A stretch of DNA of 53,023 bases. Origin: a virus (taxonomy: Duplodnaviria; Caudoviricetes). The notes beneath the pieces were generated by a model. The model worked only from the letters and a program-made list of their open reading frames with translations, was not told the DNA's origin and searched no databases. Made by a program: the position numbers and the translations under genes. The stretch covers positions 1-53,023 of the IMG/VR virus record IMGVR_UViG_3300025674_000057; one strand, given 5' to 3'. Position 1 is the first letter of the stretch. Every line of letters starts with the position of its first letter. This document shows, piece by piece, positions 34,530 to 50,319 of this stretch.

Positions 34530-35287
34530 CAAATGATTCTTGTCTTCTCGTGACCAACTCTAATACGAGGATCACACCAAATTTCAAATCCTGCTTCCTT
34601 TGCATCCAAACAGAAACTCACATCCTCTCCGCACATATCTTGAACCTCTCCAGATTCAAATACTTGCATCTTCGGAGCAAACCAAGGATACTTCATCTCC
34701 GAATGCTCAAAGACTCCGTTCTTGATTAGCAACCATCCAAATCCAGTGTAATCGACTGTGAATGGCTTTCTACGCTTGGAAATTGATTCCAATGTTTCAT
34801 GATTCATCACTCCACCATTGTTACGGAAATCATCTTCCTCTAACCAGTGTGCAACAGATGTCGTGTGACCGTCCTCAGTGCAATACCACCCAGCAGCAAT
34901 GTCTTGTTCCATGAGAACCAACTGCCAGAAGTTGTTGCTATTGAATACAATATCACTATCGATCCACAGTTGCCAATCATAATTCAACTTGCCGTCCCAG
35001 GGAATTTGGTCTGGTCCACGCAGTACGTTTGCACCAAGACACTTGCAACGGGCAAAGTTCACCATTGAACTGTAGTCTTGGGAAATCTGAATACTTGCCC
35101 CTGCCTGAACTAAGTCAAAACAAAGTTGTACAAAGTTCTTCAAGTAAGTATAAGAAACTCCTCTTCCAGGAAGACAAAAGACAATCGATTTTCCACGAAC
35201 CAATTCTTTTGCTTTTTCATAGTCCCACTCTGGTTCTTTTGTTGAACTCACGGGCGCTTTTGCTTTTACAGTAAATCCTTTAGCCAT
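34529..35287 (-). CDS. GT-A fold glycosyltransferase-like protein
   Basis: SSMVNFAR, WQLWIDSDIVF (DxD), VDYTGFG.LLIK.GVFE, GEDVSFC, RVGH. Confidence 0.8.
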   Translation of the reverse strand: MAKGFTVKAKAPVSSTKEPEWDYEKAKELVRGKSIVFCLPGRGVSYTYLKNFVQLCFDLVQAGASIQISQDYSSMVNFARCKCLGANVLRGPDQIPWDGKLNYDWQLWIDSDIVFNSNNFWQLVLMEQDIAAGWYCTEDGHTTSVAHWLEEDDFRNNGGVMNHETLESISKRRKPFTVDYTGFGWLLIKNGVFEHSEMKYPWFAPKMQVFESGEVQDMCGEDVSFCLDAKEAGFEIWCDPRIRVGHEKTRII

Positions 35288-35326
35288 AAGAAAGTGTAAT
35301 TACGTCAGGTTGTACGTACAACGAAT

Positions 35327-35355
35327 ATCATACAATATTATCTATACAATGTCAA
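35327..35355 (-). promoter_or_regulatory. Sigma70-type promoter TTGACA-17-TATGAT with an embedded late-like TATAGATA
   Basis: -35 at 35350-35355, -10 at 35327-35332, TATAGATA at 35339-35346. Confidence 0.75.
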
Positions 35356-35528
35356 TCTACTTCCCTTTCAGACATGATAATCTCACTACCCTCTAGGGAA
35401 ATATTGATCTCTGTATCTTCATACCAGGACAGATCATTCGCCATCCATTCAGGTATTATAACATAATATTCGCCAGTTACTGGATCGACCTGTAGAGGTT
35501 GAAAATTTTCTCCGGAATTTTTTCTCAT
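35352..35528 (-). CDS. 58-aa AbrB/MazE-like (swapped hairpin) protein
   Basis: Hand-read: ...VDPVTGEYYVIIPEWMANDLSWYEDTEINISLEGSEIIMSE; the V.IP......L.W......+.+....+++ pattern is typical of AbrB. Confidence 0.6.
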   Translation of the reverse strand: MRKNSGENFQPLQVDPVTGEYYVIIPEWMANDLSWYEDTEINISLEGSEIIMSEREVD

Positions 35529-35644
35529 CGCCGTTAAACAAGTTTGGGTTTTTGTTTTTATATAGCAAAAACTAAATATCTCCCTTGTGTAACACTTTGT
35601 AGACTACAGGGACCCATGGGTTTTATATACGGGGGGCTTATACG

Positions 35645-35669
35645 CGCCGCGACCCCCGAAGGGGCGGCG
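35645..35669. other. GC-rich stem-loop at the island boundary
   Basis: CGCCG-cga-CCCC-CGAA-GGGG-CGGCG; no U-tract on either strand. Confidence 0.55.
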
Positions 35670-35703
35670 ACCCTATAACTGCTGAGTCACGAACGGATGC
35701 CCA

Positions 35704-35898
35704 TCACGAATAGGTGTGACCGCTAACGGGACAGGGAGCGACCTCATCAGACCAGACCTCAGAGAACTGACCAGCGATAGCGAATGCACTGATGCCCAAC
35801 TGAGGTTGCAGACGCGACCCCATAGGGGAGTCGTCGTTGTTGCGACCCGTCCAAACGATGCGGCGGGTCTGGAGGTCGGAGGACATGGAGAGGATCAT
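35704..35898 (-). CDS. Hypothetical protein, last ORF of the island
   Basis: 64 aa; TACAAT -10 at 35923-35928 upstream. Confidence 0.55.
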   Translation of the reverse strand: MILSMSSDLQTRRIVWTGRNNDDSPMGSRLQPQLGISAFAIAGQFSEVWSDEVAPCPVSGHTYS

Positions 35899-35933
35899 GG
35901 AGGTCCCGTTGTGGTTGAGAGTATTGTAGCAGA

Positions 35934-36683
35934 TCAGAGGGGGATGACGCGAACGTCGTCGGCACCCGCCACCAACTGATCCACACGGTCCTGCTGCAAC
36001 TTCAGAACGACCGACGAATTGCGGTTCGCTTTGGACAAACCCAGGAAAGCACGAATCCCGTTGTTGCTGGTGACGCGGAGGCGGAGACCGACCTCAACGA
36101 TGTGGTGATCTTTGACCAGCACGACCTTACGGGAAGTCATGCCGCGACCCTTCTCAACGCGGGCACCGTATCCGTCTTCTAGGAGACGGGCAGCGCGGAT
36201 CGCTTCGTGTTCGATCACGTAGCAGCGTTGGGCGTCGGTGTCGGTGATCGCCATCACCATGCCGTCGTTTTCTGCGATCAGTTCGGAGCGCAACCAAGCG
36301 GTGAGGGTCACGGGGTCGATCGAATCAAGAGCAGCAGAGCAGATCTCATTAAAGAGGTCGCGGCACTCATTCACAATCGCGTCGCGCTTAGCGGTCTCCC
36401 ACTGACGGGCGTCGCTGACGAACTTGAGAAAGGGATTGAACTGAGAGGCGTCGATCAGGGTGTCGGTCTTTGAGGTGTTAACCCAATCGAAAGATCCGTT
36501 CTTCAGTCCTGCCTTGTGCTTGATGCTGATTCGCTTAGCGCCTGCCGTGGCGTCTGCCTTGTTATGGGTGCCGCCCTTATGGGTCACGATGTCGGGAAAG
36601 ACGCGGTGATCGTTGAGCAGTTGAATGGTCGCCAGTTCGTTGGCGATGCCTTCGTGATGGGTGCTGCCGTTGGTTTTGAACAT
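35934..36683 (-). CDS. Putative PD-(D/E)xK restriction-like endonuclease
   Basis: N-terminal helix Glu (GIANE), then GG..NKAD..AG...ISIK (D...S-x-K variant active site); 249 aa; high GC. Confidence 0.5.
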   Translation of the reverse strand: MFKTNGSTHHEGIANELATIQLLNDHRVFPDIVTHKGGTHNKADATAGAKRISIKHKAGLKNGSFDWVNTSKTDTLIDASQFNPFLKFVSDARQWETAKRDAIVNECRDLFNEICSAALDSIDPVTLTAWLRSELIAENDGMVMAITDTDAQRCYVIEHEAIRAARLLEDGYGARVEKGRGMTSRKVVLVKDHHIVEVGLRLRVTSNNGIRAFLGLSKANRNSSVVLKLQQDRVDQLVAGADDVRVIPL

Positions 36684-36767
36684 GTTAGAAGCGGGTGGAG
36701 TGCCACCCGACGAATTGAACAGTGTAGGAGGGGGAGTCTTTAAGGCGCTGCCGTTCCCTTCCTGTGT

Positions 36768-36796
36768 ATCTTACCAGATCACGGGGTTTCCGTCAA
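36768..36796 (-). promoter_or_regulatory. Sigma70-type promoter TTGACG-17-TAAGAT
   Basis: -35 at 36791-36796, -10 at 36768-36773, upstream of the nuclease-like ORF. Confidence 0.7.
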
Positions 36797-36908
36797 AGTC
36801 AGTCACGGTGCCCTGTTCGGTGTCCTCTGCGATCGACTCCAGAATTTCCAGGAGTTGGGCACCGTCAGCGGCACGGTTGAGCAGGGAGGTAGCAAGGTCG
36901 CGGGTCAT
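36771..36908 (-). CDS. 45-aa hypothetical protein
   Basis: Hand-read: MTRDLATSLLNRAADGAQLLEILESIAEDTEQGTVTDFDGNPVIW; the stop lies in the next promoter's -10. Confidence 0.65.
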   Translation of the reverse strand: MTRDLATSLLNRAADGAQLLEILESIAEDTEQGTVTDFDGNPVIW

Positions 36909-36965
36909 GGTAGGATGTTGGTTTGGTTTGGCGGCAGTCTTTAAGGCGCTGCCGTTCCTATGGGA

Positions 36966-37247
36966 TCAGAGATCCCAGAGCATGTCGTTCATTTCCTGGG
37001 CGTCGATCGCGGGGTCATCCCAGCGAACGCCGTCGCCAGTCTTAACCAGGTGGCGACCGATCTGCCCGTCAGTCATGCAGCGAACGAACTTCTCCCAGGG
37101 GGTCTCAATGCCTGCCTCCCTGTAGGTCACACATGCCTTAGCGGTGTTGTAGAGGAACTCATCGTTGCCGATCCAGAGGGCGGCATTCCAGGTTTCGTAG
37201 TTTGCCCAACCGTTGTAGGTGGGGAGGGTGGCGGTTGCGTTGGTCAT
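36966..37247 (-). CDS. Conserved phage hypothetical protein
   Basis: YNGWANYETWNAALWIGNDE motif; start reassigned to the ATG downstream of the -10 at 37270. Confidence 0.8.
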   Translation of the reverse strand: MTNATATLPTYNGWANYETWNAALWIGNDEFLYNTAKACVTYREAGIETPWEKFVRCMTDGQIGRHLVKTGDGVRWDDPAIDAQEMNDMLWDL

Positions 37248-37269
37248 GCTTGTCTGTGTTGTTGAGACT

Positions 37270-37329
37270 ATTATAGGCACAGGGTGTGGCGGAATCAGGC
37301 AAGCAGTGTACGGTTTGCCCACTGTCCCA
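37270..37329 (-). promoter_or_regulatory. Early promoter unit 1 (-10 TATAAT plus 9-6-9 palindrome)
   Basis: GTGTACGGT-ttgccc-ACTGTCCCA at 37306-37329, 30 bp from the -10. Confidence 0.75.
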
Positions 37330-37519
37330 CACTGCCCTTACGGTTGATCAGCAGTCGCAGCATGTCACGACGGCGGCAGTTGTGGGCACTGACTGAACCA
37401 TTGTGCCATTTCACGATGGCACGACGGGTCAGGGGTGATAGGATGACATTCTGGCAGGCAGTGCTAGGACGCTGCACGTTCATGAACACGGGCAGGTGAT
37501 CTAGGGCGAAGTCCAGCAT
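37295..37519 (-). CDS. Basic hypothetical protein
   Basis: Has its own promoter unit; ends SVGQWAN, reading through the next palindrome. Confidence 0.7.
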   Translation of the reverse strand: MLDFALDHLPVFMNVQRPSTACQNVILSPLTRRAIVKWHNGSVSAHNCRRRDMLRLLINRKGSVGQWANRTLLA

Positions 37520-37541
37520 GGTTGTCGTTTGAACTGAGGTC

Positions 37542-37601
37542 ATTATAAGGGGTCAGGGGTGCCCTTTGGGGCGGATGGTGGACGGTTCAGCAACCGAACA
37601 C
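37542..37601 (-). promoter_or_regulatory. Early promoter unit 2
   Basis: TATAAT 37542-37547; GTGGACGGT-tcagca-ACCGAACAC 37578-37601. Confidence 0.75.
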
Positions 37602-37811
37602 CAGGTCAGCGATCTGATCAACCTGGGACACCTTTCCGCCTGCTCGCATCCACTTGTAAGCAGGACCGCTGGTAGGGACGCGCCAGATCATGCACTCCTC
37701 ACCCATCCCATGGAATTCAGCGATCCGCTGGGCATGGTTGACGGAGGTTGCCCACCAGCAAGCGTGCTGATCGAACTTGGACCAGTAGGCGGGTTGAACG
37801 GCGAAGGTCAT
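37587..37811 (-). CDS. Hypothetical protein
   Basis: 74 aa with its own promoter; stop lies in the palindrome spacer. Confidence 0.7.
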   Translation of the reverse strand: MTFAVQPAYWSKFDQHACWWATSVNHAQRIAEFHGMGEECMIWRVPTSGPAYKWMRAGGKVSQVDQIADLVFGC

Positions 37812-37834
37812 CTTGGTTCGTTTGGTATGAAACC

Positions 37835-37894
37835 ATTATAGGGGGCAGATCCGCCGCAATCGGGGAATGGGTGGACAGTACGCTCATCGTCACG
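37835..37894 (-). promoter_or_regulatory. Early promoter unit 3
   Basis: TATAAT 37835-37840; GTGGACAGT-acgctc-ATCGTCACG 37871-37894. Confidence 0.75.
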
Positions 37895-37924
37895 CGGGCA
37901 GCCGAAAGTTAGTTATACAAACTC

Positions 37925-38836
37925 TCAGGGAGTTTGTGCAAACTTAGCGTTGTTGAAGTTAGCATGACTGAAACGCTCACGATTCACCAGTTTCATTGTA
38001 CCGAACTCATTGGAGTAGACATAACCTTCGGCGTCAATTCGATCAGATCCAATGTAAGCAGCAGGACCATCATTGCGGCAAAGGAAGAGTGCATCATCTT
38101 TGATAGATTTGATCAGTTTCCAGTAAGCAATCAGAGTGTAATCACAATCAAATGCATTATCATCAATCGGCGTACCTTCGCGGATGCACTTATTCAATGC
38201 CTTCTTAATCTCTGCTGCTTTCTTATCATCGACAAACTGAACACATTGCGCCATTTGCTTAGCGAACTTGATCACATCATCAAGGTCATGAAAACGGCGC
38301 AGTCCGTCATCATAATACCCAGAGAAGATCCGTGCCTTGGGTTTCACAAACTTACAGTTATGTCCATCCTCTAAGTTAACAGTCAGAGGGATTGCCCAAC
38401 TATCACGAAGGTCATCATTTGCCTCATAACGGGTATGTGGAGCAATGATGATTTCCTCATGAATTACTTCACTGAACTGATAGGTGATTGTGTTCGGAGT
38501 GTATTCTGACTGTCCACCGAATCCGATGAAGTCACCTTGGAAAATGCCATCTGTATGAGGCAACCAATCAAAACAAGCGTGAAGAATCTTTGCAACTTCG
38601 CCTGCATGGTTAGCATCAATGTCCGCATGAGATTCGTTGATCTTAATCTTTACTTTGTTGAAGACACTTTTGGTGCCCACGAAGAAATTACCCGTAGCAG
38701 GATTGCGTCCCCAAACTACAGCGGGAGCACCGTCGATCTTAACGGACAGGGCACCTGCTGCCTCAAACCAGTCCAGGGCGTTCAGGTCGCCCGTGAGGAT
38801 GGTGTCTTCGGGGTGTTCGATGTGTTTGTTTTGCAT
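37925..38836 (-). CDS. DUF6267-like protein with ligase/capping-enzyme-type nucleotidyltransferase motifs
   Basis: HIEHPED; SVKIDG (KxDG motif I); IFQGDFI (III); EGYV (IV); MKLV.R (V). Start reassigned to ATG 38836. Confidence 0.7.
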   Translation of the reverse strand: MQNKHIEHPEDTILTGDLNALDWFEAAGALSVKIDGAPAVVWGRNPATGNFFVGTKSVFNKVKIKINESHADIDANHAGEVAKILHACFDWLPHTDGIFQGDFIGFGGQSEYTPNTITYQFSEVIHEEIIIAPHTRYEANDDLRDSWAIPLTVNLEDGHNCKFVKPKARIFSGYYDDGLRRFHDLDDVIKFAKQMAQCVQFVDDKKAAEIKKALNKCIREGTPIDDNAFDCDYTLIAYWKLIKSIKDDALFLCRNDGPAAYIGSDRIDAEGYVYSNEFGTMKLVNRERFSHANFNNAKFAQTP

Positions 38837-39761: not shown

Positions 39762-40016
39762 TTAACGAAGGAGTTGCAGTTTCACAACCTCAGGCACACT
39801 ATGATCCTCTCTCACAGTGTGAATGTGGAAATTAGGATTGAGACGTTGGCATGTAGCAATTGCATCCTCTTTAGTGGCAGCAATGTAACCCAACTCATCA
39901 CGCATAATGTGACCATTAGGACGTTCAAAACGACCGGAAATGATGAACTTGGTTTCGTGAATTGCCATAAGCTGATTGTCAGTTTGGAGTGCGATTGTGC
40001 AAGGGTCAGTGTACAT
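39762..40016 (-). CDS. Hypothetical protein
   Basis: 84 aa; TGATG-coupled to the upstream ORF; starts MYTDPCT. Confidence 0.7.
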   Translation of the reverse strand: MYTDPCTIALQTDNQLMAIHETKFIISGRFERPNGHIMRDELGYIAATKEDAIATCQRLNPNFHIHTVREDHSVPEVVKLQLLR

Positions 40017-40276
40017 CAGTCGATGTAAATGTTTCGGAGGTCGTTACGATTGTCGCAGGATTCCCACACAGAGTAGAAAGAATTCCATGCACCTTCGTTA
40101 TCAACAAAGGAGTCAATATCGAGCATCTCACATACCCAATCATATGCCATATCGATGTCGGCATTTGTATCATTCACGAATGCACACATCTGACCCATAA
40201 TGTCATCCCAAGTTGCTTGCATTTCGGGGGAGATAGAGAACATGCCGTTTGAATAAGTGAAGAGGAAAGTTGCCAT
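40016..40276 (-). CDS. Acidic hypothetical protein (paralogue of 41079-41291)
   Basis: FV.DTNADIDMAYDWVCEM; start reassigned downstream of the promoter. Confidence 0.7.
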   Translation of the reverse strand: MATFLFTYSNGMFSISPEMQATWDDIMGQMCAFVNDTNADIDMAYDWVCEMLDIDSFVDNEGAWNSFYSVWESCDNRNDLRNIYID

Positions 40277-40299
40277 TGCTTGTGTTTCTTTGACCCTTC

Positions 40300-40407
40300 T
40301 ACAATACATGATTTTGGGGGTCGTGCCCATTTTGTGTTCCACCTATCCGACCGTCCACCCGCGGCTGCGATTCTCAATAATAAAAGTACTTGAGAATCGA
40401 AACGGTT
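40300..40407 (-). repeat. Promoter unit 6 plus GATTCTCAA hairpin; direct repeat, copy 2
   Basis: See copy 1; palindrome TGTTCCACC-tatccg-ACCGTCCAC at 40335-40358. Confidence 0.85.
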
Positions 40408-40411
40408 TATA

Positions 40412-40570
40412 TCAACTAGCAGGAAAGTTACGGCAGACAGCATCACACAAAACCTTCACAAGTTCAGAGTCGTTTGTGATACCATACTCTTGGAAATACT
40501 CCTCAATGATACAATCAATGTCCTCCATAAGTTGTTCACGAGCAGTCAGCATTTCAAGATTAGTGTTCAT
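40412..40570 (-). CDS. Hypothetical protein
   Basis: REQLMEDIDCI...LCDAVC.NFP. Confidence 0.7.
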   Translation of the reverse strand: MNTNLEMLTAREQLMEDIDCIIEEYFQEYGITNDSELVKVLCDAVCRNFPAS

Positions 40571-40602
40571 TTTAGAATAGGAGAAAGATGATACGAAAGA
40601 CA

Positions 40603-40737
40603 TCAATAGTCGATGTTAGCCTTGAGATAATCTTCTACGTCAAACTTATCATCTTTCTCCCATTCTTCTTTATACTCGATGACATCGTAGATCTCACCGG
40701 GAGCATCAACAATTTCAGACCAAGTTGCATCAAACAT
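40603..40737 (-). CDS. 44-aa acidic hypothetical protein
   Basis: Hand-read: MFDATWSEIVDAPGEIYDVIEYKEEWEKDDKFDVEDYLKANIDY. Confidence 0.65.
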   Translation of the reverse strand: MFDATWSEIVDAPGEIYDVIEYKEEWEKDDKFDVEDYLKANIDY

Positions 40738-40765
40738 AATCAAATAGCAAAGGGACAGTTAGTGA

Positions 40766-40966
40766 TTACCAAGAGAGAACAATACCCTGTCCAGGGTCAG
40801 CAATTCTCACATTTTCTTTCTGTTTAACAAACATTTTCTTCCAAGTTGATTGTCCATCAATCTCACCAACGATAAAATCTACGGTGCGGGTTGATACTTT
40901 CACCCCTGCCAATCCGTTGAGCACGAGTGAGCAACCTACGCAAACTTCAGAGAATGGAACAATCAT
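40766..40966 (-). CDS. Hypothetical protein
   Basis: First ORF behind promoter unit 7. Confidence 0.6.
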   Translation of the reverse strand: MIVPFSEVCVGCSLVLNGLAGVKVSTRTVDFIVGEIDGQSTWKKMFVKQKENVRIADPGQGIVLSW

Positions 40967-40991
40967 TGGAGTGAAATGTCTCAACTTAAAT

Positions 40992-41049
40992 ACAATACAC
41001 GATTCTGGGGTCTTGTGGCGGTTTGGTGGACACCTTGCCGACCGTCACA
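40992..41049 (-). promoter_or_regulatory. Early promoter unit 7
   Basis: TATTGT 40992-40997; GTGGACACC-ttgccg-ACCGTCACA 41026-41049. Confidence 0.7.
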
Positions 41050-41078
41050 GCGGGTCAGCCGCCGCGAGTATAAAGAAC

Positions 41079-41291
41079 TCACGGGCAGTTGTACCTAGAA
41101 TCGTTCATGTATTCTTTATACACCTCAGCAACTTCTTCCCAATGCTCATCACGAAGTTCACCACACATGTTCTCCATCCAATCATAAACCATGCCCCAAT
41201 CTGCATCATTTTCCATAATGAATTGAGGCAGAGACTGCAGGTAAAACTGGAAAGAATTCATGGCGAAAGTGCAGGGGTCGGTGTAAACCAA
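41079..41291 (-). CDS. Acidic hypothetical protein
   Basis: Probable TTG start (VYTDPCT...), FIMENDADWGMVYDWMENM; start position uncertain. Confidence 0.65.
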   Translation of the reverse strand: MVYTDPCTFAMNSFQFYLQSLPQFIMENDADWGMVYDWMENMCGELRDEHWEEVAEVYKEYMNDSRYNCP

Positions 41292-41318
41292 AATCAGGTC
41301 GTTTTCGAACTTGAAACT

Positions 41319-41377
41319 ACAATACACGATTTTGGGGGGATATCAACCCCCCTTGTGACAGTTCTCAGATCGTCCGC
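41319..41377 (-). promoter_or_regulatory. Early promoter unit 8
   Basis: TATTGT 41319-41324; TGTGACAGT-tctcag-ATCGTCCGC 41354-41377. Confidence 0.7.
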
Positions 41378-41676
41378 ACGTAGTTATAAACAGAGCGACA
41401 ATCGTTGTAGAATTCTTTACACTCAGGCACGAACACAGTATTAATCCATGCCCAGAAAGTCTTTGCACCTTCGATAACCTGAAGCACGAACAATTGAGTC
41501 CGTTCGGTCATATCATGCTCTTTCCACTTCTGAGCAATCACAGTAGCAATTGCAGCAACGATTAGGCACAGGTTCTCAACACCATCCATGAAAGTGTTGT
41601 AGTGTTTCTTATAATCAATCTCGACAATCATCTCCACGAATGCATCAACGGGAGGGAAAGATTTGGTCAGTTCCAT
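41365..41676 (-). CDS. Hypothetical protein with a hydrophobic/amphipathic helix
   Basis: FPPVD.F, LCLIVAAIATVIA; stop lies in the palindrome spacer. Confidence 0.75.
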   Translation of the reverse strand: MELTKSFPPVDAFVEMIVEIDYKKHYNTFMDGVENLCLIVAAIATVIAQKWKEHDMTERTQLFVLQVIEGAKTFWAWINTVFVPECKEFYNDCRSVYNYVRTI

Positions 41677-41736
41677 TGTTGTTTAAAAAAAAAGGATTTG
41701 TGGGGGAAAATGTAGCGAATTCCCGACCACAAAACC

Positions 41737-41873
41737 AACATAATCGATCTCGGCGCACAAGTCAACCCATCTGCGCCAGTTCTCCAACTGTCCACCATTC
41801 TCAATAAGACTTAGTTATTGAGAATCAATAAGATCTTTTAAATGAGAATGGGTCCAGTCTCCGAACTGGCACA
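41737..41873 (-). promoter_or_regulatory. Early promoter unit 9, hairpin and a second (orphan) palindrome
   Basis: TTGACT-17-TATGTT; TGCGCCAGT-tctcca-ACTGTCCAC 41772-41795; ATTCTCAATAA-7-TTATTGAGAAT 41797-41825; GGGTCCAGT-ctccga-ACTGGCACA 41850-41873. Confidence 0.7.
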
Positions 41874-42038
41874 TTAAAAGATATCGGAGTAATCCTTGAT
41901 GGTAATATTAATATCCTCGTCTCCTTCTAGCTCCAGAAGATCTTTCCAGTCAAGATCTTCTAGTTCTAGATCATCATAACACATGATGTCTAGTGTTACA
42001 CGTACTAGGCGTTTTTGTGCGACCATGTGTGCAGGCAT
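41874..42038 (-). CDS. Small acidic hypothetical protein
   Basis: Hand-read: MPAHMVAQKRLVRVTLDIMCYDDLELEDLDWKDLLELEGDEDINITIKDYSDIF; TTGCGT-17-TATAAT at 42062-42090. Confidence 0.7.
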   Translation of the reverse strand: MPAHMVAQKRLVRVTLDIMCYDDLELEDLDWKDLLELEGDEDINITIKDYSDIF

Positions 42039-42067
42039 GACTCTCGTGCTGTGTGTACTAGATTATA

Positions 42068-42253
42068 TCATGCATAATGCTTATACGCAAGCGCATCATA
42101 ATCTAGTGCATCTCGTGTGTAGTCGTCATCGTCATATGAATCTAGTGCTTGTGCATCTAGTGCATATGATTGCATATATGTCTCATACATCTCGTCGAGA
42201 TCGTATGTGTAATCTTGTGTGAATGAGTAGTCGAGATCGTAGTCGTCGTACAT
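42068..42253 (-). CDS. Asp/Tyr-rich low-complexity peptide
   Basis: 61 aa behind TTGCGA-17-TATAAT (42287-42315); contains no Gly, Pro or Trp. Confidence 0.55.
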   Translation of the reverse strand: MYDDYDLDYSFTQDYTYDLDEMYETYMQSYALDAQALDSYDDDDYTRDALDYDALAYKHYA

Positions 42254-42448
42254 AATTCTCGTCGAGATTGTGTATGATGCTTTATGATTATACTGTATTC
42301 TCGTCGAGATCGCAAGTCCCTATAATGCCTGATTCTCGTCGAGATGCATAATAATATATATGTATTCTCGTCTAGATTTGTGTTATTATGCACATAATGC
42401 TCGTCGAGATTCATTATAGCATAATCTCGCCTAGATGTCTAGTCTAGA
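42189..42448. repeat. Array of ~9 TCTCG-N-CGAGA / TCTAG-N-CTAGA palindromes
   Basis: Copies start at 42190, 42226, 42257, 42299, 42334, 42366, 42399, 42425 and 42438. Confidence 0.9.
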
Positions 42449-42494
42449 TTTTATAAGACTGTGTGGGTCTCAGAGTTTTTCGCCGCCCCGTGAC

Positions 42495-42523
42495 TTGACG
42501 AACCGCGCTCCTTATGCTACGCT
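42495..42523 (+). promoter_or_regulatory. Plus-strand (antisense) sigma70 promoter TTGACG-17-TACGCT with extended TG
   Basis: -35 at 42495-42500, TG at 42515-42516, -10 at 42518-42523; points into the tandem repeat. Confidence 0.55.
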
Positions 42524-42543
42524 CGCTAAACTTGCATCAGGGA

Positions 42544-42682
42544 GGCACCTTTACATAAGATTATCGGCACCTTTACATAAGATTATCGGCACCTTTACAT
42601 AAGATTATCGGCACCTTTACATAAGATTTCTATGAGATTATCGGCACCTTTACATAAGATTTACATAAGACTTCTATGAGAT
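42544..42682 (+). repeat. 22-bp tandem repeat GGCACCTTTACATAAGATTATC built from 11-bp subunits
   Basis: Three perfect copies (42544, 42566, 42588) and two partial copies (42610, 42643) separated or followed by 11-mer TTTCTATGAGA-type units. Confidence 0.95.
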
Positions 42683-42823
42683 AAAACCATCTATTCTCAA
42701 CAATAATACCTTATTGATTCTCAATTAATCTAAACTATTGAGAACTGTATAAACAACAACTTTATATTTAAAAAGGTATTTTTTTAATTAAAACAAGGTT
42801 AAAACACCCAGATTAAGGCATTT

Positions 42824-43075
42824 TTACCATTTTTTCACTGGACACTGTGCAGCAGTCAGTCCTGCCTTATGTTCCATATAACAACCACACTTCTTACATC
42901 TCTTTGAGTTCTGTTCAAAGTGTTCACAACCTAGACAAAGACTTAATCTACGACTCTTCTCTAATGGTTCAACAAACAACTTATTATTCTTAATTGCATC
43001 ACGAATTACATCAGCAATTAACAATGTTGAATTCTTTGCTTGTTCTGGTAATGATGGAAACTGATCTTCAGACAT
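42824..43075 (-). CDS. Small Cys-rich (CxxC/CxxCxC) putative metal-binding protein
   Basis: R...CLGC.........CKKCGC.M..K......CP..KW. Confidence 0.75.
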   Translation of the reverse strand: MSEDQFPSLPEQAKNSTLLIADVIRDAIKNNKLFVEPLEKSRRLSLCLGCEHFEQNSKRCKKCGCYMEHKAGLTAAQCPVKKW

Positions 43076-43080
43076 ATGAC

Positions 43081-43233
43081 CTAATTGAATATTGGAATGA
43101 TTTCACTATTTACATATCCTTCATTCATCACATATTTCTCCCAACGTACAGCATCTTCAATTGTATAAAACACTGCTTTCTGTTGAGAGACTTTATTCTT
43201 CTTCTTTCGTTGATAGATGACTTGATACTTCAT
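43081..43233 (-). CDS. 50-aa hypothetical protein
   Basis: Hand-read: MKYQVIYQRKKKNKVSQQKAVFYTIEDAVRWEKYV... Confidence 0.65.
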   Translation of the reverse strand: MKYQVIYQRKKKNKVSQQKAVFYTIEDAVRWEKYVMNEGYVNSEIIPIFN

Positions 43234-43240
43234 AATGCAA

Positions 43241-43507
43241 TTAAGGATCAGAATAACGATAAAGTTGTGACTTATATAAATCCTCTGAACTTCTTGACTT
43301 TACATACTCCAACTCATTCCAATACTGTGGATAACATACTACACAACAATGAGTCTTCTTATGAAAATTGACCAGATTATCAGGTTTATCTTTTACAGAA
43401 ATCTCAATTGTACAATATTCACTATCAACAAAATACACCCATCCTTCTAAATCAGTATGAGAGTTTTTCCACCTTACATAATCATTTAACTTAGGGACAT
43501 AAGACAT
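43241..43507 (-). CDS. Hypothetical protein
   Basis: YVP.LNDYV.W, EGWVYF, W.EL.YVKSR. Confidence 0.75.
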   Translation of the reverse strand: MSYVPKLNDYVRWKNSHTDLEGWVYFVDSEYCTIEISVKDKPDNLVNFHKKTHCCVVCYPQYWNELEYVKSRSSEDLYKSQLYRYSDP

Positions 43508-43824
43508 TGCTCTAATGGATTTAACTTGAGTTGCATTGCAGAATATGGAGTCGTTTTGTTTATATCTACTTGATCACCTTGTTTGACGGAATTGATTGGT
43601 GCATAGTAGGTGTCTGTTTTTGTGTTATAGAATCCCCAGATACAAACAGATTCATCATGAGAATTGTAATTAAACCCATGCTGATGTACAGTCCAAATTG
43701 AAAGAACATGACGTTTAAATTGTAACGTTCGGTAGTAGTATCCTTCTGGGGGACGGTGAATGAAAGATGCTGGGAGTTCATGATTCACGAGTCGCTCGGA
43801 GATGATTGGGATTGTATCCTTCAT
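43486..43824 (-). CDS. Hypothetical protein (true start probably ~43788)
   Basis: FIH.PPEGY.Y, IWGFY..K...Y.AP.N, TTPYSAM. Confidence 0.75.
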   Translation of the reverse strand: MKDTIPIISERLVNHELPASFIHRPPEGYYYRTLQFKRHVLSIWTVHQHGFNYNSHDESVCIWGFYNTKTDTYYAPINSVKQGDQVDINKTTPYSAMQLKLNPLEQCLMSLS

Positions 43825-43930
43825 GAATCAAGGATTGTAGTTTTTCAGATGCTTGTGAACGAGTCAGGTGTTCTTCAATAGGTTCCCAACCTGTTGTACA
43901 AAACTCTTCAATACGATACAGTGCTTCCAT
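43778..43930 (-). CDS. 50-aa hypothetical protein
   Basis: Hand-read: MEALYRIEEFCTTGWEPIEEHLTRSQASEKLQSLIHEGYNPNHLRATRES. Confidence 0.65.
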   Translation of the reverse strand: MEALYRIEEFCTTGWEPIEEHLTRSQASEKLQSLIHEGYNPNHLRATRES

Positions 43931-43938
43931 AATACTAA

Positions 43939-44175
43939 TCAGGTGGTAAAAGATTCAACAACATGAGATTGAACATCATCGGCAAGTGTATACACACGAG
44001 CATCATTGATATTCTTTCTTAAATTACTATAATACTCTGGATACTGCTCATTATCAGAATCAGTAATCAGATCAAAACATTCCTCATTACTCTCCGCAAT
44101 TACATTCCAAACACCACCATACTCTGAAGCAGGAAAAGGAATGAAATGATCAACGATGTAAAGAAACTTCGTCAT
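43939..44175 (-). CDS. Hypothetical protein
   Basis: LYIVDH..PFP.SEYGG; canonical TTGACA-17-TAAAAT promoter at 44199-44227. Confidence 0.8.
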   Translation of the reverse strand: MTKFLYIVDHFIPFPASEYGGVWNVIAESNEECFDLITDSDNEQYPEYYSNLRKNINDARVYTLADDVQSHVVESFTT

Positions 44176-44188
44176 TGTCTTTTATAAA

Positions 44189-44359
44189 TTACTCCTTGAT
44201 TTTAGTTGATTGTGTAAGATTTGTCAATTGTCGATTTAATTCATACTTAATTCCATATAACTTACCACACATATAATTCTCATAAGAATTACCTTTCAAT
44301 AGTGAGAGCAAATTATCAACCTGCATTTGAGCAAGAATGAGTTTGGTTTCTTCAGTCAT
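44189..44359 (-). CDS. 56-aa hypothetical protein
   Basis: Hand-read: MTEETKLILAQMQVDNLLSLLKGNSYENYM...YELNRQLTN. Confidence 0.65.
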   Translation of the reverse strand: MTEETKLILAQMQVDNLLSLLKGNSYENYMCGKLYGIKYELNRQLTNLTQSTKIKE

Positions 44360-44541
44360 CAGAGAAACTCCGCCATGTAATAATCTACAGTCACTTCTAA
44401 CTCTGATGCCTTCTTCTCATAAAACTGATTCGTATAGTCCTCTGCTTCTTTCCATTGCTCATAAGAATGAATGTTTTCTTCGGAGTGATTCATAAAATCA
44501 GAAAATGCAGAAAGAAATTGTTTGATGTCTTCGTCGTTCAT
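44359..44541 (-). CDS. Acidic hypothetical protein
   Basis: Ends EKKASELEVTVDYYMAEFL; start reassigned to MNDED. Confidence 0.7.
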   Translation of the reverse strand: MNDEDIKQFLSAFSDFMNHSEENIHSYEQWKEAEDYTNQFYEKKASELEVTVDYYMAEFL

Positions 44542-44542
44542 A

Positions 44543-44746
44543 TCAGAAAGATGGTACAACATCATTGCGAATACCAGTCTCAGATTGATCCATTTGTTCC
44601 CAGATTGTATGAAGTTTATGATACAATACAGAAACACTTCCATACTCACGAGCAATTAAATACTCATCACGTCCATCTAATTGTTGAAGTGCCGTTAACA
44701 ATATACCAATCTCATGTACATTTAGATTCATACTCGTTTCGGTCAT
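44543..44746 (-). CDS. Hypothetical protein
   Basis: LNVHEIG.LL.AL; AGGAGG upstream of ATG 44746. Confidence 0.7.
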   Translation of the reverse strand: MTETSMNLNVHEIGILLTALQQLDGRDEYLIAREYGSVSVLYHKLHTIWEQMDQSETGIRNDVVPSF

Positions 44747-44857
44747 ATTCCTCCTGTAGTTTGCGTAAAAATTGAATCTCACGATCGATTTGTTCAATGT
44801 CTTCCAAAAGTTTCACCTTGCGTATACTAAGTTCAAGAATACTACTCTCAAATTCCA

Positions 44858-45061
44858 TCATTTTAAATCAATACGATCGAATACTAACATACCAATTTCA
44901 AAAAACAACTCATCATCCATATCACCCATAATGTTTCGAATACCATCGGCAACACTATCCTGCATCGCCTGAGTCACGGTATCATCATTAATTATATACT
45001 CAATGATCGCGGGTTTTAATGCATCCGCAATCTTAGAAACAGAAGAATGAGAAAGTTTCAT
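44858..45061 (-). CDS. Hypothetical protein
   Basis: 67 aa, TAATG-coupled. Confidence 0.7.
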   Translation of the reverse strand: MKLSHSSVSKIADALKPAIIEYIINDDTVTQAMQDSVADGIRNIMGDMDDELFFEIGMLVFDRIDLK

Positions 45062-48379: not shown

Positions 48380-49357
48380 TTAGTATAAGGCATCCATCAG
48401 GGGATTCTGTGCCTCCTGTACCAGTTCGTCAACTGTCTCCTGAGCAATGCTGATAGCATCTGGGTTCACGTCCATCGTGATACAATTTCGGTTCAGGTTA
48501 AAAGCGGATATTGCTGTCGTTCCAGATCCGCAGAAGGGGTCTAGGACCCATCCACCCTCAGGACATGACGATTTTATGATACGTTCTAACAGTTTCAGGG
48601 GTTTTTGAGTGGGATATTTACGCTTATTCTTCTCAGATCGACTGATAAAGTATACATCATCCCACAGATTCTGCACGGGAACACCCTTGGACTCATGAGA
48701 ATAGATTTTTTTGTAAAGGTTGTTGCTGCCGTAGTGCAAACGGTCCTGGGCGTCCAGTTCTTCCAGTTTTTCCCTTGTTATACGAAACCCGTACTGAGGA
48801 TTATATCCTTTGTACTCAAATCGCGCACAAGGACGACTCTTTTCACCAGTAACTTTAGCAAGAGCATAATATCCAACTGCATCCTTATTTTGGAAACTAT
48901 TCGCAGCATAAACAGGATCAAGAGAGGTATATTCAACCTCAAAGTATGGACTACCCTTACGGAGCACCATGATACTGTCTACAATATTACCCCAACCGTT
49001 CTTGATATTGTTCTTAGGACCACTACGTTTCCAGGAGATATTGGTATAGAATGCATCCCGAACTTTACGATCAATCTTAGAAAGAACTAGAGCATTTCCA
49101 ATAAAGTTGTTGTGTGCGTACAACCAACCATTCTTATTCAGTTTTTTATATGCATTATTGATTACTTCAGCATACCAATCAATATAATCATCAAAGGAAC
49201 TCCAGGTATCAGAGAATCCTTTCTCTTGACCATCTTCCTCCTGCATGGTAAAGTCACGCTGCAATCCAAACGGAGGATCCATATAAATTAGGTCAAATGT
49301 CTGATCAATGGTATCTAATTCTTCTACTGGTTTTTGAAGGATCTTTATCTCAGACAT
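48380..49357 (-). CDS. Beta-class N6-adenine/N4-cytosine DNA methyltransferase
   Basis: Motif IV IYMDPPF precedes YPTQKP..LLERII and motif I VLDPFCGSGTT. Confidence 0.92.
   Translation of the reverse strand: MSEIKILQKPVEELDTIDQTFDLIYMDPPFGLQRDFTMQEEDGQEKGFSDTWSSFDDYIDWYAEVINNAYKKLNKNGWLYAHNNFIGNALVLSKIDRKVRDAFYTNISWKRSGPKNNIKNGWGNIVDSIMVLRKGSPYFEVEYTSLDPVYAANSFQNKDAVGYYALAKVTGEKSRPCARFEYKGYNPQYGFRITREKLEELDAQDRLHYGSNNLYKKIYSHESKGVPVQNLWDDVYFISRSEKNKRKYPTQKPLKLLERIIKSSCPEGGWVLDPFCGSGTTAISAFNLNRNCITMDVNPDAISIAQETVDELVQEAQNPLMDALY
48382..48440 (-). promoter_or_regulatory. Early promoter unit 13 (inside the MTase 3' end)
   Basis: TATACT 48382-48387; TGTACCAGT-tcgtca-ACTGTCTCC 48417-48440. Confidence 0.7.
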
Positions 49358-49379
49358 AACCACTCACTAACAACAATAG

Positions 49380-50141: not shown

Positions 50142-50319
50142 TTGATTCCTCACATTTGCGGTAAAATACCCCATTTACATAGCAGGATTTACCAGGTTCA
50201 TAATATTTTACCACAGGTGGTGATGTTTGTCTAACATTACATAATTCACCTTGTTTTTCAACAAAGTTTCCCATACACAGAGATGCAACAAAAGGAGCAA
50301 GAAGTTTAAGAGTGTACAT
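50128..50319 (-). CDS. Small Cys-containing hypothetical protein
   Basis: Hydrophobic N-terminus; YYEPGKSCYVNGVFY.KC. Confidence 0.65.
   Translation of the reverse strand: MYTLKLLAPFVASLCMGNFVEKQGELCNVRQTSPPVVKYYEPGKSCYVNGVFYRKCEESNGSI

What the first reader, a model, noticed from the sequence alone, without database searches (positions are those of the whole stretch)
42036..42464. ~430 bp with no GG dinucleotide, and 282 bp with neither GG nor CC
Seen: by manual scan there is no GG on the plus strand from 42036 to 42464, no CC from 42025 to 42317, and no AAA. Roughly 15 GG would be expected at ~19% G. The tract is instead packed with CTAG, TCGA, ATGCAT and CATATG-type palindromes and alternating purine-pyrimidine runs. 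The constraint spans an ORF (whose peptide has no G, P or W) and promoters, so it acts at the DNA level. Inference: exclusion of a GG/CC-context signal (base hypermodification, primase or nuclease site), or selection for a special DNA structure beside an origin or terminus.
Basis: partly seen in the sequence, partly recalled or inferred. Interest (0 to 1): 0.7.

Follow-up and report, generated by a model that had tools for sequence, protein, structure and literature searches.

The report
Cyanophage palindrome array and tiny acidic gene
The stretch without GG or CC is real; it is a tiny, very acidic phage gene plus its promoter region, which holds eight copies of one short DNA palindrome and lies beside what looks like the phage's replication origin, so the odd composition is most likely a side effect of these conserved elements.

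Summary
GG is absent from 42035-42465, CC from 42024-42318 and AAA from 41878-42528. A joint GG+CC-free run of 284 nt was reached by 0 of 300 dinucleotide shuffles.

The window is a fragment of a T4-like cyanophage. The tract has two parts:
- A conserved minus-strand gene (42068-42253) for a 61-aa Asp/Tyr-rich protein (net charge -16). Its family has 1436 unnamed database clusters.
- Its upstream region, with eight copies of the palindrome ATCTCGACGAGAT. The copies lie about three helical turns apart and sit on conserved sigma-70-type promoters.

Directly to the right lies an origin-like module: an outward promoter, 22-bp iterons, a box cluster and an easily melted AT-rich block. In 15 of 38 relatives the box cluster is host-type DnaA boxes.

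In 29 of 35 related lineages the syntenic tract has the longest GG-free run of its locus. However, which dinucleotide is missing varies, and relatives do carry GG and CC in the tract.

I read the depletion mainly as a by-product of the site array, AT-rich spacers and the Asp/Tyr gene. A residual codon bias remains unexplained. A GG/CC-specific signal is not supported.

The binding protein and origin activity are unproven. This scan met the same module before on other genomes.

The parts
41798..41824 (.). Inverted repeat TTCTCAATAA-N7-TTATTGAGAA at the left border of the module, downstream of the 54-aa gene
   Evidence: exact arms at 41798-41807 on the minus strand and 41815-41824 on the plus strand. 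The same word recurs at the right border, 42694-42744.
41874..42038 (-). Conserved 54-aa acidic gene (net charge -10), family phrog_12516, function unknown. It was used as the anchor to fetch relatives.
   Evidence: PHROG E 7.4e-15; 118 relatives confirmed, 80 loci kept; 15 invariant columns in 20 sequences; model pLDDT 74.9, almost no secondary structure as a monomer.
42068..42253 (-). Gene for a 61-aa Asp/Tyr-rich protein (18 D+E, 13 Y, net charge -16). Family consensus: MYDDYDLDYTY..DLDEDYARD..DYE.LAYRHYA. This is the coding half of the GG/CC-free tract.
   Evidence: 34 of 38 representatives by a strict pattern; codon-position entropy 3>1>2; 1436 proteins at E<=0.001, none named, no Pfam domain; deepest RNA-library contigs lie here; pLDDT 64.7.
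42190..42450 (.). Array of eight copies of the palindrome ATCTCGACGAGAT (minus-strand reading): 42189-42201 (inside the ORF), 42256-42268, 42298-42310, 42333-42345, 42365-42377, 42398-42410, 42424-42436 and 42438-42450. Relative to the ORF start they lie at +52, -15, -57, -92, -124, -157, -183 and -196.
   Evidence: 12 matches at 7 places, all in 42189-42436; shuffles mean 1.09, largest 5; 80-140-fold enriched 6-mers; 246 sites in 38 representatives at conserved positions.
42287..42315 (-). Leftward promoter TTGCGA-17-TATAAT in front of the Asp/Tyr gene. The palindrome at 42298-42310 fills its spacer and the one at 42256-42268 lies just downstream of the expected start.
   Evidence: 10 of 12 matches; 31 relatives: consensus cTTGc-ATCTCGtCGAGa-ttt.TGcTATAAT. 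RNA-library contig depth rises to the left of about 42312 (weak evidence).
42413..42441 (-). Second, upstream leftward promoter-like site, TAGACA-17-TGcTATAAT, also with a palindrome (42424-42436) in its spacer. Seen only in the window's closest lineage.
   Evidence: 11 of 12, with TG; the -150 group: the window and L079 share it.
42460..42480 (+). Conserved box TGTGTGGGTCTCAGAGTTTTT upstream of the outward promoter. It holds the first GG after the tract.
42495..42523 (+). Rightward (outward) sigma-70-type promoter TTGACG-17-TACGCT, opposite in direction to all neighbouring genes. In relatives it reads cTTGACAAACTGCGCGTCTTATGATACGCT, or carries TATAAT.
   Evidence: The consensus scan did not list it because the window's second hexamer matches only 3 of 6; the support is its conservation in relatives.
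42544..42670 (+). Iterons: five copies of the 22-bp unit GGCACCTTTACATAAGATTATC (three exact) plus an 11-bp doublet. Relatives have other units around a TTTA(C/T)ATAAG core.
42694..42744 (.). Cluster of three TTCTCAA / TTGAGAA words. In 15 of 38 relatives this position holds two or more cyanobacterial DnaA boxes instead; the two cassettes never occur together.
42731..42790 (.). AT-rich block, candidate DNA unwinding element. It is one of the seven least stable separate 60-nt places of the 53 kb.
   Evidence: -1.047 kcal/mol per step against a mean of -1.263, sd 0.093.
42824..43075 (-). 83-aa CxxC...CxxC gene at the right border of the module (DUF6171, phrog_13558).
   Evidence: 27.2 bits against a cut-off of 27; homologue in L004.

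Best explanation
The GG/CC-free tract is not a signal in itself. It is the footprint of two conserved elements of a T4-like cyanophage, packed together at the left edge of an origin-like control module.

(1) The first element is a real, transcribed gene (42068-42253, minus strand) for a 61-aa protein made mostly of Asp, Tyr, Leu, Glu, Ala and Thr. This composition leaves almost no way to write GG or CC.

(2) The second element is the gene's promoter region. It is built of roughly 32-bp units, each holding the 13-bp palindrome ATCTCGACGAGAT and an AT-rich, TATAAT-like spacer. Neither contains GG or CC.

Inferred mechanism: a dimeric sequence-specific DNA-binding protein, not yet identified, docks on the palindromes. 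The sites lie about three helical turns apart, so they sit on one face of the helix. One fills the spacer of the conserved leftward promoter, one lies just after the expected transcription start, and two or three continue into the ORF. Cooperative binding would therefore shut off or time the early leftward transcript for the two small acidic proteins, possibly in step with the neighbouring origin-like module.

Shown here: the elements, their conservation, their positions and their coding status. Inferred: protein binding, repression and early timing.
For: Gene reality:
- The ORF is found in 34 of 38 non-redundant relatives by a strict pattern. Three of the four misses are variants seen otherwise: S-SKS1 and L069 and S-SRM01. 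L055 has none.
- Codon-position entropy is highest at position 3 and lowest at position 2 (0.40/0.18/0.04 at the N-terminus, 0.88/0.37/0.24 at the C-terminus). One conserved Arg is written with six codons.
- 1436 database proteins match at E<=0.001.
- RNA-library contigs of 4 runs cover the gene. The deepest bins are 42010-42312 (150-595 in X17, 131-405 in X19) against 4-18 in 42313-42514.

Composition explains most of the depletion:
- Given the window's peptide, only 1.5-3.6 GG and 2.1-3.5 CC (plus-strand sense) are expected in the ORF.
- In the 211-nt non-coding half, 91 nt are palindrome copies. The 120 nt of spacers are expected to hold 3.1 GG and 1.8 CC, and hold 0 and 3.

Site array:
- In the window, 12 matches at 7 places all lie in 42189-42436, against 1.09 expected.
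- Its 6-mers are 80-140-fold enriched, in 35-37 of 38 relatives.
- 246 sites in 38 relatives sit at fixed positions: -15, -55, -88, -120 and -150, and +16, +46/52 and +82 relative to the ORF start. Core columns are 85-100% conserved, flanks about 30-55%.
- The -55 site sits inside a conserved TTGCAT-17-TGcTATAAT promoter in 31 relatives.
- Departures from the palindrome are one-sided, which fits two protein half-sites. At positions 5/9 there are 57 one-sided changes against 2 two-sided ones; at the other inner pairs (2/12, 3/11, 4/10, 6/8) no two-sided changes occur.
- The half-site ACGAGA is written in two reading frames inside the ORFs: 29 times as (A/T/V)RD and 19 times as YEx/DEx/NEx.

Conservation of the depletion: the syntenic tract has the longest GG-free run of its locus in 29 of 35 relatives, the longest CC-free run in 21 of 35, and the longest run free of both in 29 of 35.
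Against: - After allowing for peptide composition and repeats, about 6-8 GG would still be expected in the whole tract and none is seen.
- Across 34 ORFs, coding-strand CC is 16, against 43 or 103 expected from the peptides under two codon tables.
- Ala, Thr and Ser codons end in a purine in 86-98% of cases, against 38-53% in 168 other ORFs of the same loci. The neighbouring 54-aa gene does not show this. Some DNA- or RNA-level pressure therefore remains unexplained. These sequences are related, so the counts are not independent.
- No binding protein is identified. Both adjacent proteins are acidic, which makes them poor DNA binders.
- The number of promoter-like matches in the region is not above shuffles (4 against 5.3), so the promoters rest on conservation.
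- RNA evidence comes from contigs only, which show neither strand nor ends. Many are from related strains, and RNA libraries can hold DNA.
- In four lineages (S-SKS1, L009, L019, L051) the site is mostly a one-orientation half-site, ATCTCGT. In L019 the same word also forms the iterons on the origin side. That fits an origin role better than a plain operator.
Confidence: 0.6

Rival explanations
1. The array is the left arm of the phage's replication origin. An initiator or accessory protein binds the phased palindromes and wraps the DNA, as at T4 oriE iterons or the lambda O-some. The lack of stiff steps (GG, CC, AAA, TTT) and the excess of flexible pyrimidine-purine steps are themselves selected to let the DNA bend. 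The two small acidic genes would be origin-linked early genes, like repEA/repEB of T4.
For: - The tract abuts a conserved module: an outward promoter, iterons, a box cluster and an AT-rich block among the 7 least stable places of the window.
- 15 of 38 relatives carry two or more cyanobacterial DnaA boxes there. TTTTCCACA occurs 33 times in 12,290 nt against 8 times in 232,347 nt of background. The box identity is taken from a passage of PMC5987646.
- The array has roughly 31-35-bp phasing.
- In L019 the ATCTCGT word also makes up the iterons on the origin side.
- Purine-pyrimidine alternation and homodinucleotide depletion are shared by relatives. In the ORF, 29 and 32 of 33 are beyond 2 sd; in the non-coding 200 nt, 3 and 11 of 33.
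- T4 oriE has evenly spaced 12-nt repeats, depends on an early promoter and has repEA beside it (passages of PMC3016281).
Against: - No replication data exist.
- The window itself has no DnaA box.
- The tract has average duplex stability.
- The alternation is weak in the non-coding half of relatives (0.547 against 0.495).
- There is no GC-skew turn at this place.
- One site sits exactly in a promoter spacer, which is the classic place for a repressor.
- For T4 oriE itself, the cited review says no link between the iterons and origin activity has been established.
Confidence: 0.2
2. GG and CC are excluded because a GG/CC-context signal must be avoided here. Candidates are a base-modification target, a primase start, or a site for a nuclease, restriction enzyme or CRISPR PAM.
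For: - The joint GG+CC-free run exceeds all 300 shuffles.
- The depletion recurs in the syntenic tract of most relatives.
- Coding-strand CC is scarcer than the peptides require (16 against 43-103).
Against: - GG and CC are at expectation elsewhere in the window (0.97 and 1.04), so there is no genome-wide avoidance.
- In the relatives' non-coding stretch from the outward promoter to the ORF start (G-rich box included), counts range from 1 to 18 GG and 0 to 9 CC. Most relatives have a conserved GGG codon in the ORF.
- Which dinucleotide is scarcer changes between lineages.
- All four homodinucleotides are low, not just GG and CC.
- NCT codons are avoided as strongly as NCC.
- No TGT-family gene is in the contig, though it is only about 25% of a genome.
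Confidence: 0.05
3. The repeats act in the RNA. The leftward leader carries many copies of a self-complementary 12-mer that pair with each other, or form small hairpins, and control stability or translation of the tiny gene's mRNA.
For: The leader 42410-42254 (minus strand) folds at -33.7 kcal/mol against -23.6 (sd 3.3) for shuffles, z = -3.05. The site at -15 lies directly before the start codon.
Against: - Any set of palindrome copies gives such a z-score by construction.
- Changes within sites are one-sided, not compensatory (57 against 2 at positions 5/9).
- Most sites lie upstream of the best-conserved promoter and would not be in its transcript.
- No Rfam family matches 40000-45000.
Confidence: 0.05
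4. Chance plus local base composition, with no biology behind the depletion.
For: GG alone (5 of 300) and CC alone (11 of 300) are only mildly unusual. A 398-nt GG-free run exists elsewhere in the window.
Against: The joint run was reached in 0 of 300 shuffles. The same tract is the longest run free of both in 29 of 35 related loci.
Confidence: 0.02

Closest known systems
Operator arrays on phage and plasmid promoters (lambda OR/OL with CI and Cro; P22 Arc and Mnt operators; plasmid R1 parC with ParR). Recalled from general knowledge; no call checked these systems.
   Same: Several copies of one short dyad-symmetric site, phased on the helix, overlap the core of a sigma-70-type promoter and the start of the transcript. 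This is the layout of cooperative repression.
   Different: No cognate DNA-binding gene is identified. The array is long (5-10 sites over 250-300 bp). It runs into the coding sequence of the controlled gene, where the site is written in two reading frames. It lies beside an origin-like module.
Bacteriophage T4 oriE with repEA/repEB (Kreuzer and Brister 2010, PMC3016281; passages read)
   Same: A T4-type phage with a cluster of evenly spaced short repeats, dependence on a host-type early promoter, and small early ORFs beside the site. The role of the repeats is likewise unproven in T4.
   Different: T4 oriE has 12-nt direct repeats, not palindromes, and no DnaA boxes. There is no sequence similarity. 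No replication data exist for the cyanophage module.
Cyanobacterial oriC-type DnaA-box clusters (TTTTCCACA; passage of PMC5987646) and iteron-plus-DnaA-box plasmid origins
   Same: In 15 of 38 relatives, two to four same-direction TTTTCCACA boxes follow the iterons and precede an AT-rich block.
   Different: The window's own version has no DnaA box but three TTCTCAA words in that place. The boxes lie outside the GG/CC-free tract.
Small acidic phage early proteins that mimic DNA or jam host enzymes (T7 Ocr, T7 Gp2, T7 Gp5.9, phi29 p56). Recalled from general knowledge.
   Same: Size (45-65 aa), extreme negative charge (net -16), and a probable early gene position in a lytic phage.
   Different: No sequence or structure match: no Pfam or PHROG hit, no named Atlas cluster, and a model at pLDDT 64.7. 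The Tyr richness (13 of 61) is not a feature of those proteins. The function is untested.

Membership tests
Promoter-operator array (repressor docking sites) | Repeated dyad-symmetric sites of one sequence | tested here: met
   Eight sites in the window and 246 in 38 relatives. Core columns are 85-100% conserved.
Promoter-operator array (repressor docking sites) | A site overlaps the core promoter or the transcription start | tested here: met
   The -55 site fills the 17-nt spacer of TTGCAT-17-TGcTATAAT in 31 relatives. In the window this is 42315-42287, 10 of 12 matches. The starts are not mapped; RNA contigs give only a weak hint.
Promoter-operator array (repressor docking sites) | A cognate sequence-specific DNA-binding protein | not testable with these tools
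   None identified. The two neighbouring proteins are acidic and have no DNA-binding family match. An AbrB/MazE-like domain lies at 50319-51029, but this is only a lead.
Iteron-type replication origin (T4 oriE, lambda ori, iteron plasmids) | Repeated initiator sites next to an AT-rich unwinding element | tested here: inconclusive
   Iterons lie at 42544-42670 and the AT-rich block at 42731-42790, among the 7 least stable places. These are outside the tract, and the tract itself has average stability.
Iteron-type replication origin (T4 oriE, lambda ori, iteron plasmids) | Host initiator (DnaA) boxes | tested here: not met
   The window has 0 boxes at up to 1 mismatch in the 330 nt after the outward promoter. 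15 of 38 relatives have two or more.
Iteron-type replication origin (T4 oriE, lambda ori, iteron plasmids) | Replication starts there | not testable with these tools
   No replication data. There is no GC-skew turn at 42-43 kb.
Avoidance of a GG/CC-context modification, primase or nuclease signal | Avoidance holds wherever the signal would act (genome-wide or in all relatives) | tested here: not met
   Window-wide GG is 0.97 and CC 1.04 of expectation. Relatives carry GG and CC in the tract, and the scarcer dinucleotide varies.
Avoidance of a GG/CC-context modification, primase or nuclease signal | Matching modification genes in the phage | tested here: inconclusive
   No TGT-family match in the contig, which is estimated 25% complete. 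One N6/N4 DNA methyltransferase lies at 48380-49363. Other pathways were not searched.
Z-DNA or other alternating purine-pyrimidine structure | Long uninterrupted alternating runs, especially (CG)n or (TG)n | tested here: not met
   The longest alternating run is 12 nt (ATATATATGTAT). Overall alternation of 0.626 is the top of the window.
DNA-mimic or host-jamming small acidic phage proteins | A compact fold that displays a DNA-like array of carboxylates, or a known target | tested here: inconclusive
   Net charge is -16. The AlphaFold model has pLDDT 64.7 with two helices. There are no family hits.

The most novel reading that the evidence does not exclude
The tract is the protein-wrapping arm of the still unmapped replication origin of a large group of T4-like cyanophages.

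- A phased array of dyad sites, written even through a tiny gene whose peptide motifs (DLDE, ARD) are shaped by the sites, recruits an initiator or accessory factor.
- The neighbouring cassette recruits either host DnaA (TTTTCCACA boxes) or another factor (TTCTCAA words), in a mutually exclusive way.
- The two tiny acidic proteins are origin-linked early factors, in the manner of T4 RepEA/RepEB.
- The absence of stiff GG, CC and AAA steps is then a selected mechanical property of DNA that must bend.
Probability: 0.2. Interest if true: 0.75.

Novelty: new variant of a known kind. Interest (0 to 1): 0.45.

Why it matters
T4-like cyanophages are major killers of marine and freshwater picocyanobacteria, yet how they start replication and switch off their first genes is not worked out. 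A review passage I read (PMC2984593) reports only a predicted single theta origin for Syn9.

This locus offers concrete, testable parts:
- a conserved palindrome array on early promoters;
- a very widespread but unnamed tiny acidic protein family (1436 clusters);
- next to them, an origin-like module that comes in a host-DnaA version and a non-DnaA version.

Three cultured phages carry it: S-SRM01, S-T4 and S-SKS1. In S-T4 and S-SRM01 the tiny gene is not even annotated.

For the finding as posed, the lesson is more modest. A striking dinucleotide gap can be the shadow of dense overlapping sequence signals rather than a signal of its own.

Tried and rejected
- Rfam search of 40000-45000 at E<=1: no match. 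tRNA scan: none.
- Pfam and PHROG scans of the Asp/Tyr protein: no family. ESM Atlas: only unnamed clusters, best score 0.85.
- AlphaFold models: the 54-aa protein has pLDDT 74.9 but almost no secondary structure; the Asp/Tyr protein has pLDDT 64.7. I judged both too weak for fold searches and ran none.
- Complex prediction of the 54-aa protein with the Asp/Tyr protein returned 'no answer' (score 0.00). This is evidence neither for nor against binding.
- tblastn of the 54-aa protein against cultured phages found nothing at E<=1e-3, although S-SKS1 and S-SRM01 clearly encode it. That search was simply too insensitive for so short a protein.
- Genome-wide tests were impossible because the 'genome' held is the window itself.
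- RNA fold of the outward transcript 42530-42800: z = -0.36, no sign of structure.
- Restriction-site avoidance was considered and rejected, because 4- and 6-bp palindromes are enriched, not avoided.
- An overlapping ORF in another frame was considered as the cause of the codon bias and rejected: frames stay open merely because the sequence is low in complexity, and the stop pattern does not explain the avoidance of C-ending codons.
- RNA-library contigs do not cover every part of 41000-44000. I draw nothing from the uncovered parts.
- Literature: six searches of the held library found no paper that describes the palindrome, this module or DnaA boxes in a cyanophage. Weigele et al. 2007 (Syn9 origin prediction) I saw only through a review passage. 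Supplementary files were not consulted.
Full report
**1. The observation**

The sequence was read and the runs were counted.
- The longest GG-free run of the window is 42035-42465 (431 nt).
- The longest CC-free run is 42024-42318 (295 nt).
- The longest run free of both is 42035-42318 (284 nt). The next best anywhere in the 53 kb is 124 nt.
- AAA is absent from 41878-42528.

In 42036-42464, GG is 0 against 17.6 expected and CC is 4 against 13.8. AA (0.51) and TT (0.38) are also low. AT, TC and CG are high; CG is 1.54 there against 0.65 in the window.

Among 300 dinucleotide-preserving shuffles of the window, a GG-free run this long arose 5 times and a CC-free run this long 11 times. A run free of both never arose (largest 208). 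A second GG-free run of 398 nt lies in a structural gene. The single depletions are therefore modest and the joint one is real.

Purine-pyrimidine alternation (0.626) is the top of the window. The longest strictly alternating run is only 12 nt.

**2. What the window is**

The 'genome' held is only this contig, estimated at 25% of a genome.
- Its large ORFs match T4-type tail sheath stabiliser, head-closure (connector) and baseplate wedge families.
- blastn finds only Synechococcus phages and other cyanophage or marine virus records, 48 in all.
- All genes around the tract lie on the minus strand.
- Sixteen DNA runs labelled aquatic or freshwater metagenome hold half or more of the stretch's words.

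**3. The coding half**

The minus-strand ORF 42068-42253 encodes MYDDYDLDYSFTQDYTYDLDEMYETYMQSYALDAQALDSYDDDDYTRDALDYDALAYKHYA. It has 18 D+E, 13 Y and net charge -16.

I used the neighbouring 54-aa gene (phrog_12516) as an anchor to fetch relatives.
- 118 stretches were confirmed and 80 loci kept.
- 73 of the 80 have at least 600 nt upstream. With the window, S-SKS1 and S-SRM01 that makes 76 sequences, which collapse to 38 non-redundant representatives.

A strict pattern finds the Asp/Tyr ORF in 34 of the 38. Of the four misses:
- S-SKS1 and L069 have variant starts.
- S-SRM01 has the ORF partly outside my slice (tblastn 96% identity over residues 23-47).
- L055 has none.

Evidence that it codes for protein:
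- Codon-position entropy is highest at position 3 and lowest at position 2.
- One conserved Arg is written CGT, CGA, CGC, CGG, AGA or AGG.
- A profile search finds 1436 proteins at E<=0.001, none named and none with a Pfam domain.

The gene is unannotated in S-T4 and in S-SRM01.

RNA evidence comes from the contigs of four metatranscriptome runs.
- Depth is greatest over 42010-42312: 150-595 in X17 and 131-405 in X19.
- Depth is 4-18 in the next two bins to the right.
- This is weak evidence. Contigs show neither strand nor ends, many are only 90-95% alike, and RNA libraries can hold DNA.

Given the peptide, only 1.5-3.6 GG and 2.1-3.5 CC (plus-strand sense) are expected in the window's ORF under two codon tables. 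Most of the depletion in this half therefore follows from the amino-acid composition.

**4. The non-coding half**

From 42254 to 42464, 91 of 211 nt are copies of one palindrome, ATCTCGACGAGAT in the gene's orientation. The 120 nt of spacers are AT-rich and are expected to hold 3.1 GG and 1.8 CC; they hold 0 and 3.

The palindrome in the window and in relatives:
- In the window it matches at 7 places with up to 2 mismatches, all between 42189 and 42436. Shuffles give 1.09 matches on average. An eighth, weaker copy lies at 42438-42450.
- In relatives its 6-mers are 80-140-fold enriched over the rest of the same loci, and are present in 35-37 of 38.
- The 246 sites found in 38 representatives sit at nearly fixed distances from the ORF start: -15, -55, -88, -120 and -150, and inside the ORF at +16, +46/52 and +82. 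That is roughly every 31-35 bp, or three helical turns.
- Core columns are 85-100% conserved and the flanks about 30-55%.

The -55 site fills the 17-nt spacer of a promoter that is conserved in 31 relatives (cTTGc-AT..., then TGcTATAAT).
- In the window this promoter is 42315-42287, and a second one of the same build is 42441-42413.
- The number of promoter-like matches in the region is not above shuffles (4 against 5.3), so these calls rest on conservation.

Two further observations bear on how the sites act.
- Departures from the palindrome are one-sided. At positions 5/9 there are 57 one-sided changes against 2 two-sided ones; the other inner pairs (2/12, 3/11, 4/10, 6/8) have no two-sided changes. 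This fits two protein half-sites and argues against hairpins.
- Inside the ORFs the half-site ACGAGA is written in two reading frames: 29 times as (A/T/V)RD and 19 times as YEx/DEx/NEx. TCTCGA is written 68 times, mainly as DLD. The site is therefore selected as DNA, across coding and non-coding sequence.

**5. The neighbourhood**

To the right of the tract, relatives share the following elements in order:
- a box TGTGTGGGTCTCAGAGTTTTT (window 42460-42480);
- a rightward sigma-70-type promoter (window 42495-42523, TTGACG-17-TACGCT; in relatives TTGACA-17-TAnnnT, in some TATAAT);
- iterons (window 42544-42670);
- a box cluster;
- an AT-rich block.

The rightward promoter points against all neighbouring genes and has no ORF behind it.

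The box cluster comes in two mutually exclusive forms:
- two or more DnaA boxes in 15 of 38 representatives;
- two or more TTCTCAA/TTGAGAA words in 14 of 38, the window among them;
- both in 0 and neither in 9.

TTTTCCACA occurs 33 times in 12,290 nt there, against 8 times in 232,347 nt of background. [quoted passage not shown]

The AT-rich block 42731-42790 is one of the seven least stable separate 60-nt places of the window. The GG/CC-free tract itself has average stability. There is no GC-skew turn here.

This layout resembles an origin. The nearest T4 precedent is oriE, which has evenly spaced 12-nt repeats, depends on an early promoter and has small rep genes beside it. Its repeats also lack a proven role (passages of PMC3016281). 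A review passage says that only a single theta origin has been predicted for the cyanophage Syn9 (PMC2984593).

**6. Is the depletion conserved?**

It is conserved as a trend.
- The syntenic 500 nt has a longer GG-free run than every other 500-nt tile of its locus in 29 of 35 relatives, a longer CC-free run in 21 of 35, and a longer run free of both in 29 of 35.
- The medians are 258, 190 and 129 nt, against tile means of 105, 96 and 53.

It is not absolute, and it is not specific to one dinucleotide.
- In the ORFs of 24 relatives, plus-strand GG is 13 against 172 expected and CC is 65 against 171. A conserved GGG codon accounts for part of the CC.
- In their non-coding stretch from the outward promoter to the ORF start (G-rich box included), GG is 0.64 and CC 0.54 of expectation.
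- In several lineages CC, not GG, shows the longer gap.
- All four homodinucleotides are low. Their fraction is 0.094 in the ORFs and 0.158 in the upstream 200 nt, against 0.251 in the loci. It lies beyond 2 sd in 32 and 11 of 33 relatives respectively.

**7. What remains unexplained**

- Over 34 ORFs, coding-strand CC is 16, against 43 or 103 expected from the peptides.
- Ala, Thr and Ser codons end in A or G in 98%, 91% and 86% of cases, against 53%, 38% and 42% in 168 other ORFs of the same loci. NCT is avoided as much as NCC.
- The 54-aa neighbour shows only a mild version of this bias and no CC depletion.
- The sequences are related, so the counts overstate independent events.
- I have no tested explanation. 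Dense overlapping DNA signals, or selection for bendable DNA, are candidates.

**8. Verdict**

The tract is a tiny acidic gene plus its palindrome-studded promoter region, at the edge of an origin-like module. Most likely an unidentified dimeric DNA-binding protein docks on the phased sites and times the early leftward transcript. A role as an arm of the origin is the main rival (rival 1).

The GG/CC gap is mainly a by-product. A GG/CC-specific signal is not supported.

Earlier notes of this scan described the same palindrome array with a tiny acidic gene, and the DnaA-box module, on other genomes. I reached my reading before seeing them (records it), and they are not independent evidence.

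Noticed in passing
window 35000-38000: A G+C-rich island (0.47-0.57 against about 0.33-0.43 around it). It holds a 249-aa ORF (35934-36683, minus strand) with no PHROG or Pfam match, and the window's longest AAA-free run (36796-37830). It may be acquired DNA.
   Followed up: partly
window 48380-49363 (minus strand): N6/N4-type DNA methyltransferase (PF01555, E 3.8e-40). This is the only base-modification gene I saw in the contig; its target site is unknown.
   Followed up: partly
window 50319-51029 (minus strand): A 236-aa protein with a C-terminal MazE/AbrB-like DNA-binding domain match just under the Pfam cut-off (23.7 against 24.7 bits). It is a possible candidate binder for the palindromes, untested.
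   Followed up: no
window 9496-16584 and 18178-30945 (minus strand): Two giant ORFs of 2362 and 4255 aa among the baseplate and tail genes. The second holds the window's other long GG-free run (22531-22928, 398 nt).
   Followed up: no
L004 1581-2309 (locus minus strand); similar MSxGIIY starts in L005, L020, L021, L044, L047, L054, L063, L064, L067, L079: A GIY-YIG homing-endonuclease-like gene (PF01541, E 2e-07 in L004) is inserted between the origin-like module and the DUF6171 gene in many relatives, but not in the window. Only L004 was checked against Pfam.
   Followed up: partly
L019 and L051, S-SKS1 (L001 2130-2530), L009: In these lineages the site occurs mostly as a one-orientation half-site, (G)ATCTCGT(A), 12-14 copies. 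In L019 the same word also forms the iterons downstream of the outward promoter.
   Followed up: partly
window 41798-41824 and 42694-42744: The same inverted-repeat word (TTCTCAAT...ATTGAGAA) brackets the whole module on both sides, about 950 bp apart. S-SRM01 shows the same bracketing. The meaning is unknown.
   Followed up: no
S-T4 record MH412654.1 about 2606-3619 (L083 1423-2434): About 1 kb without any annotated gene in the cultured phage S-T4 holds the homologous tiny gene and palindromes. The tiny gene is also unannotated in S-SRM01.
   Followed up: partly
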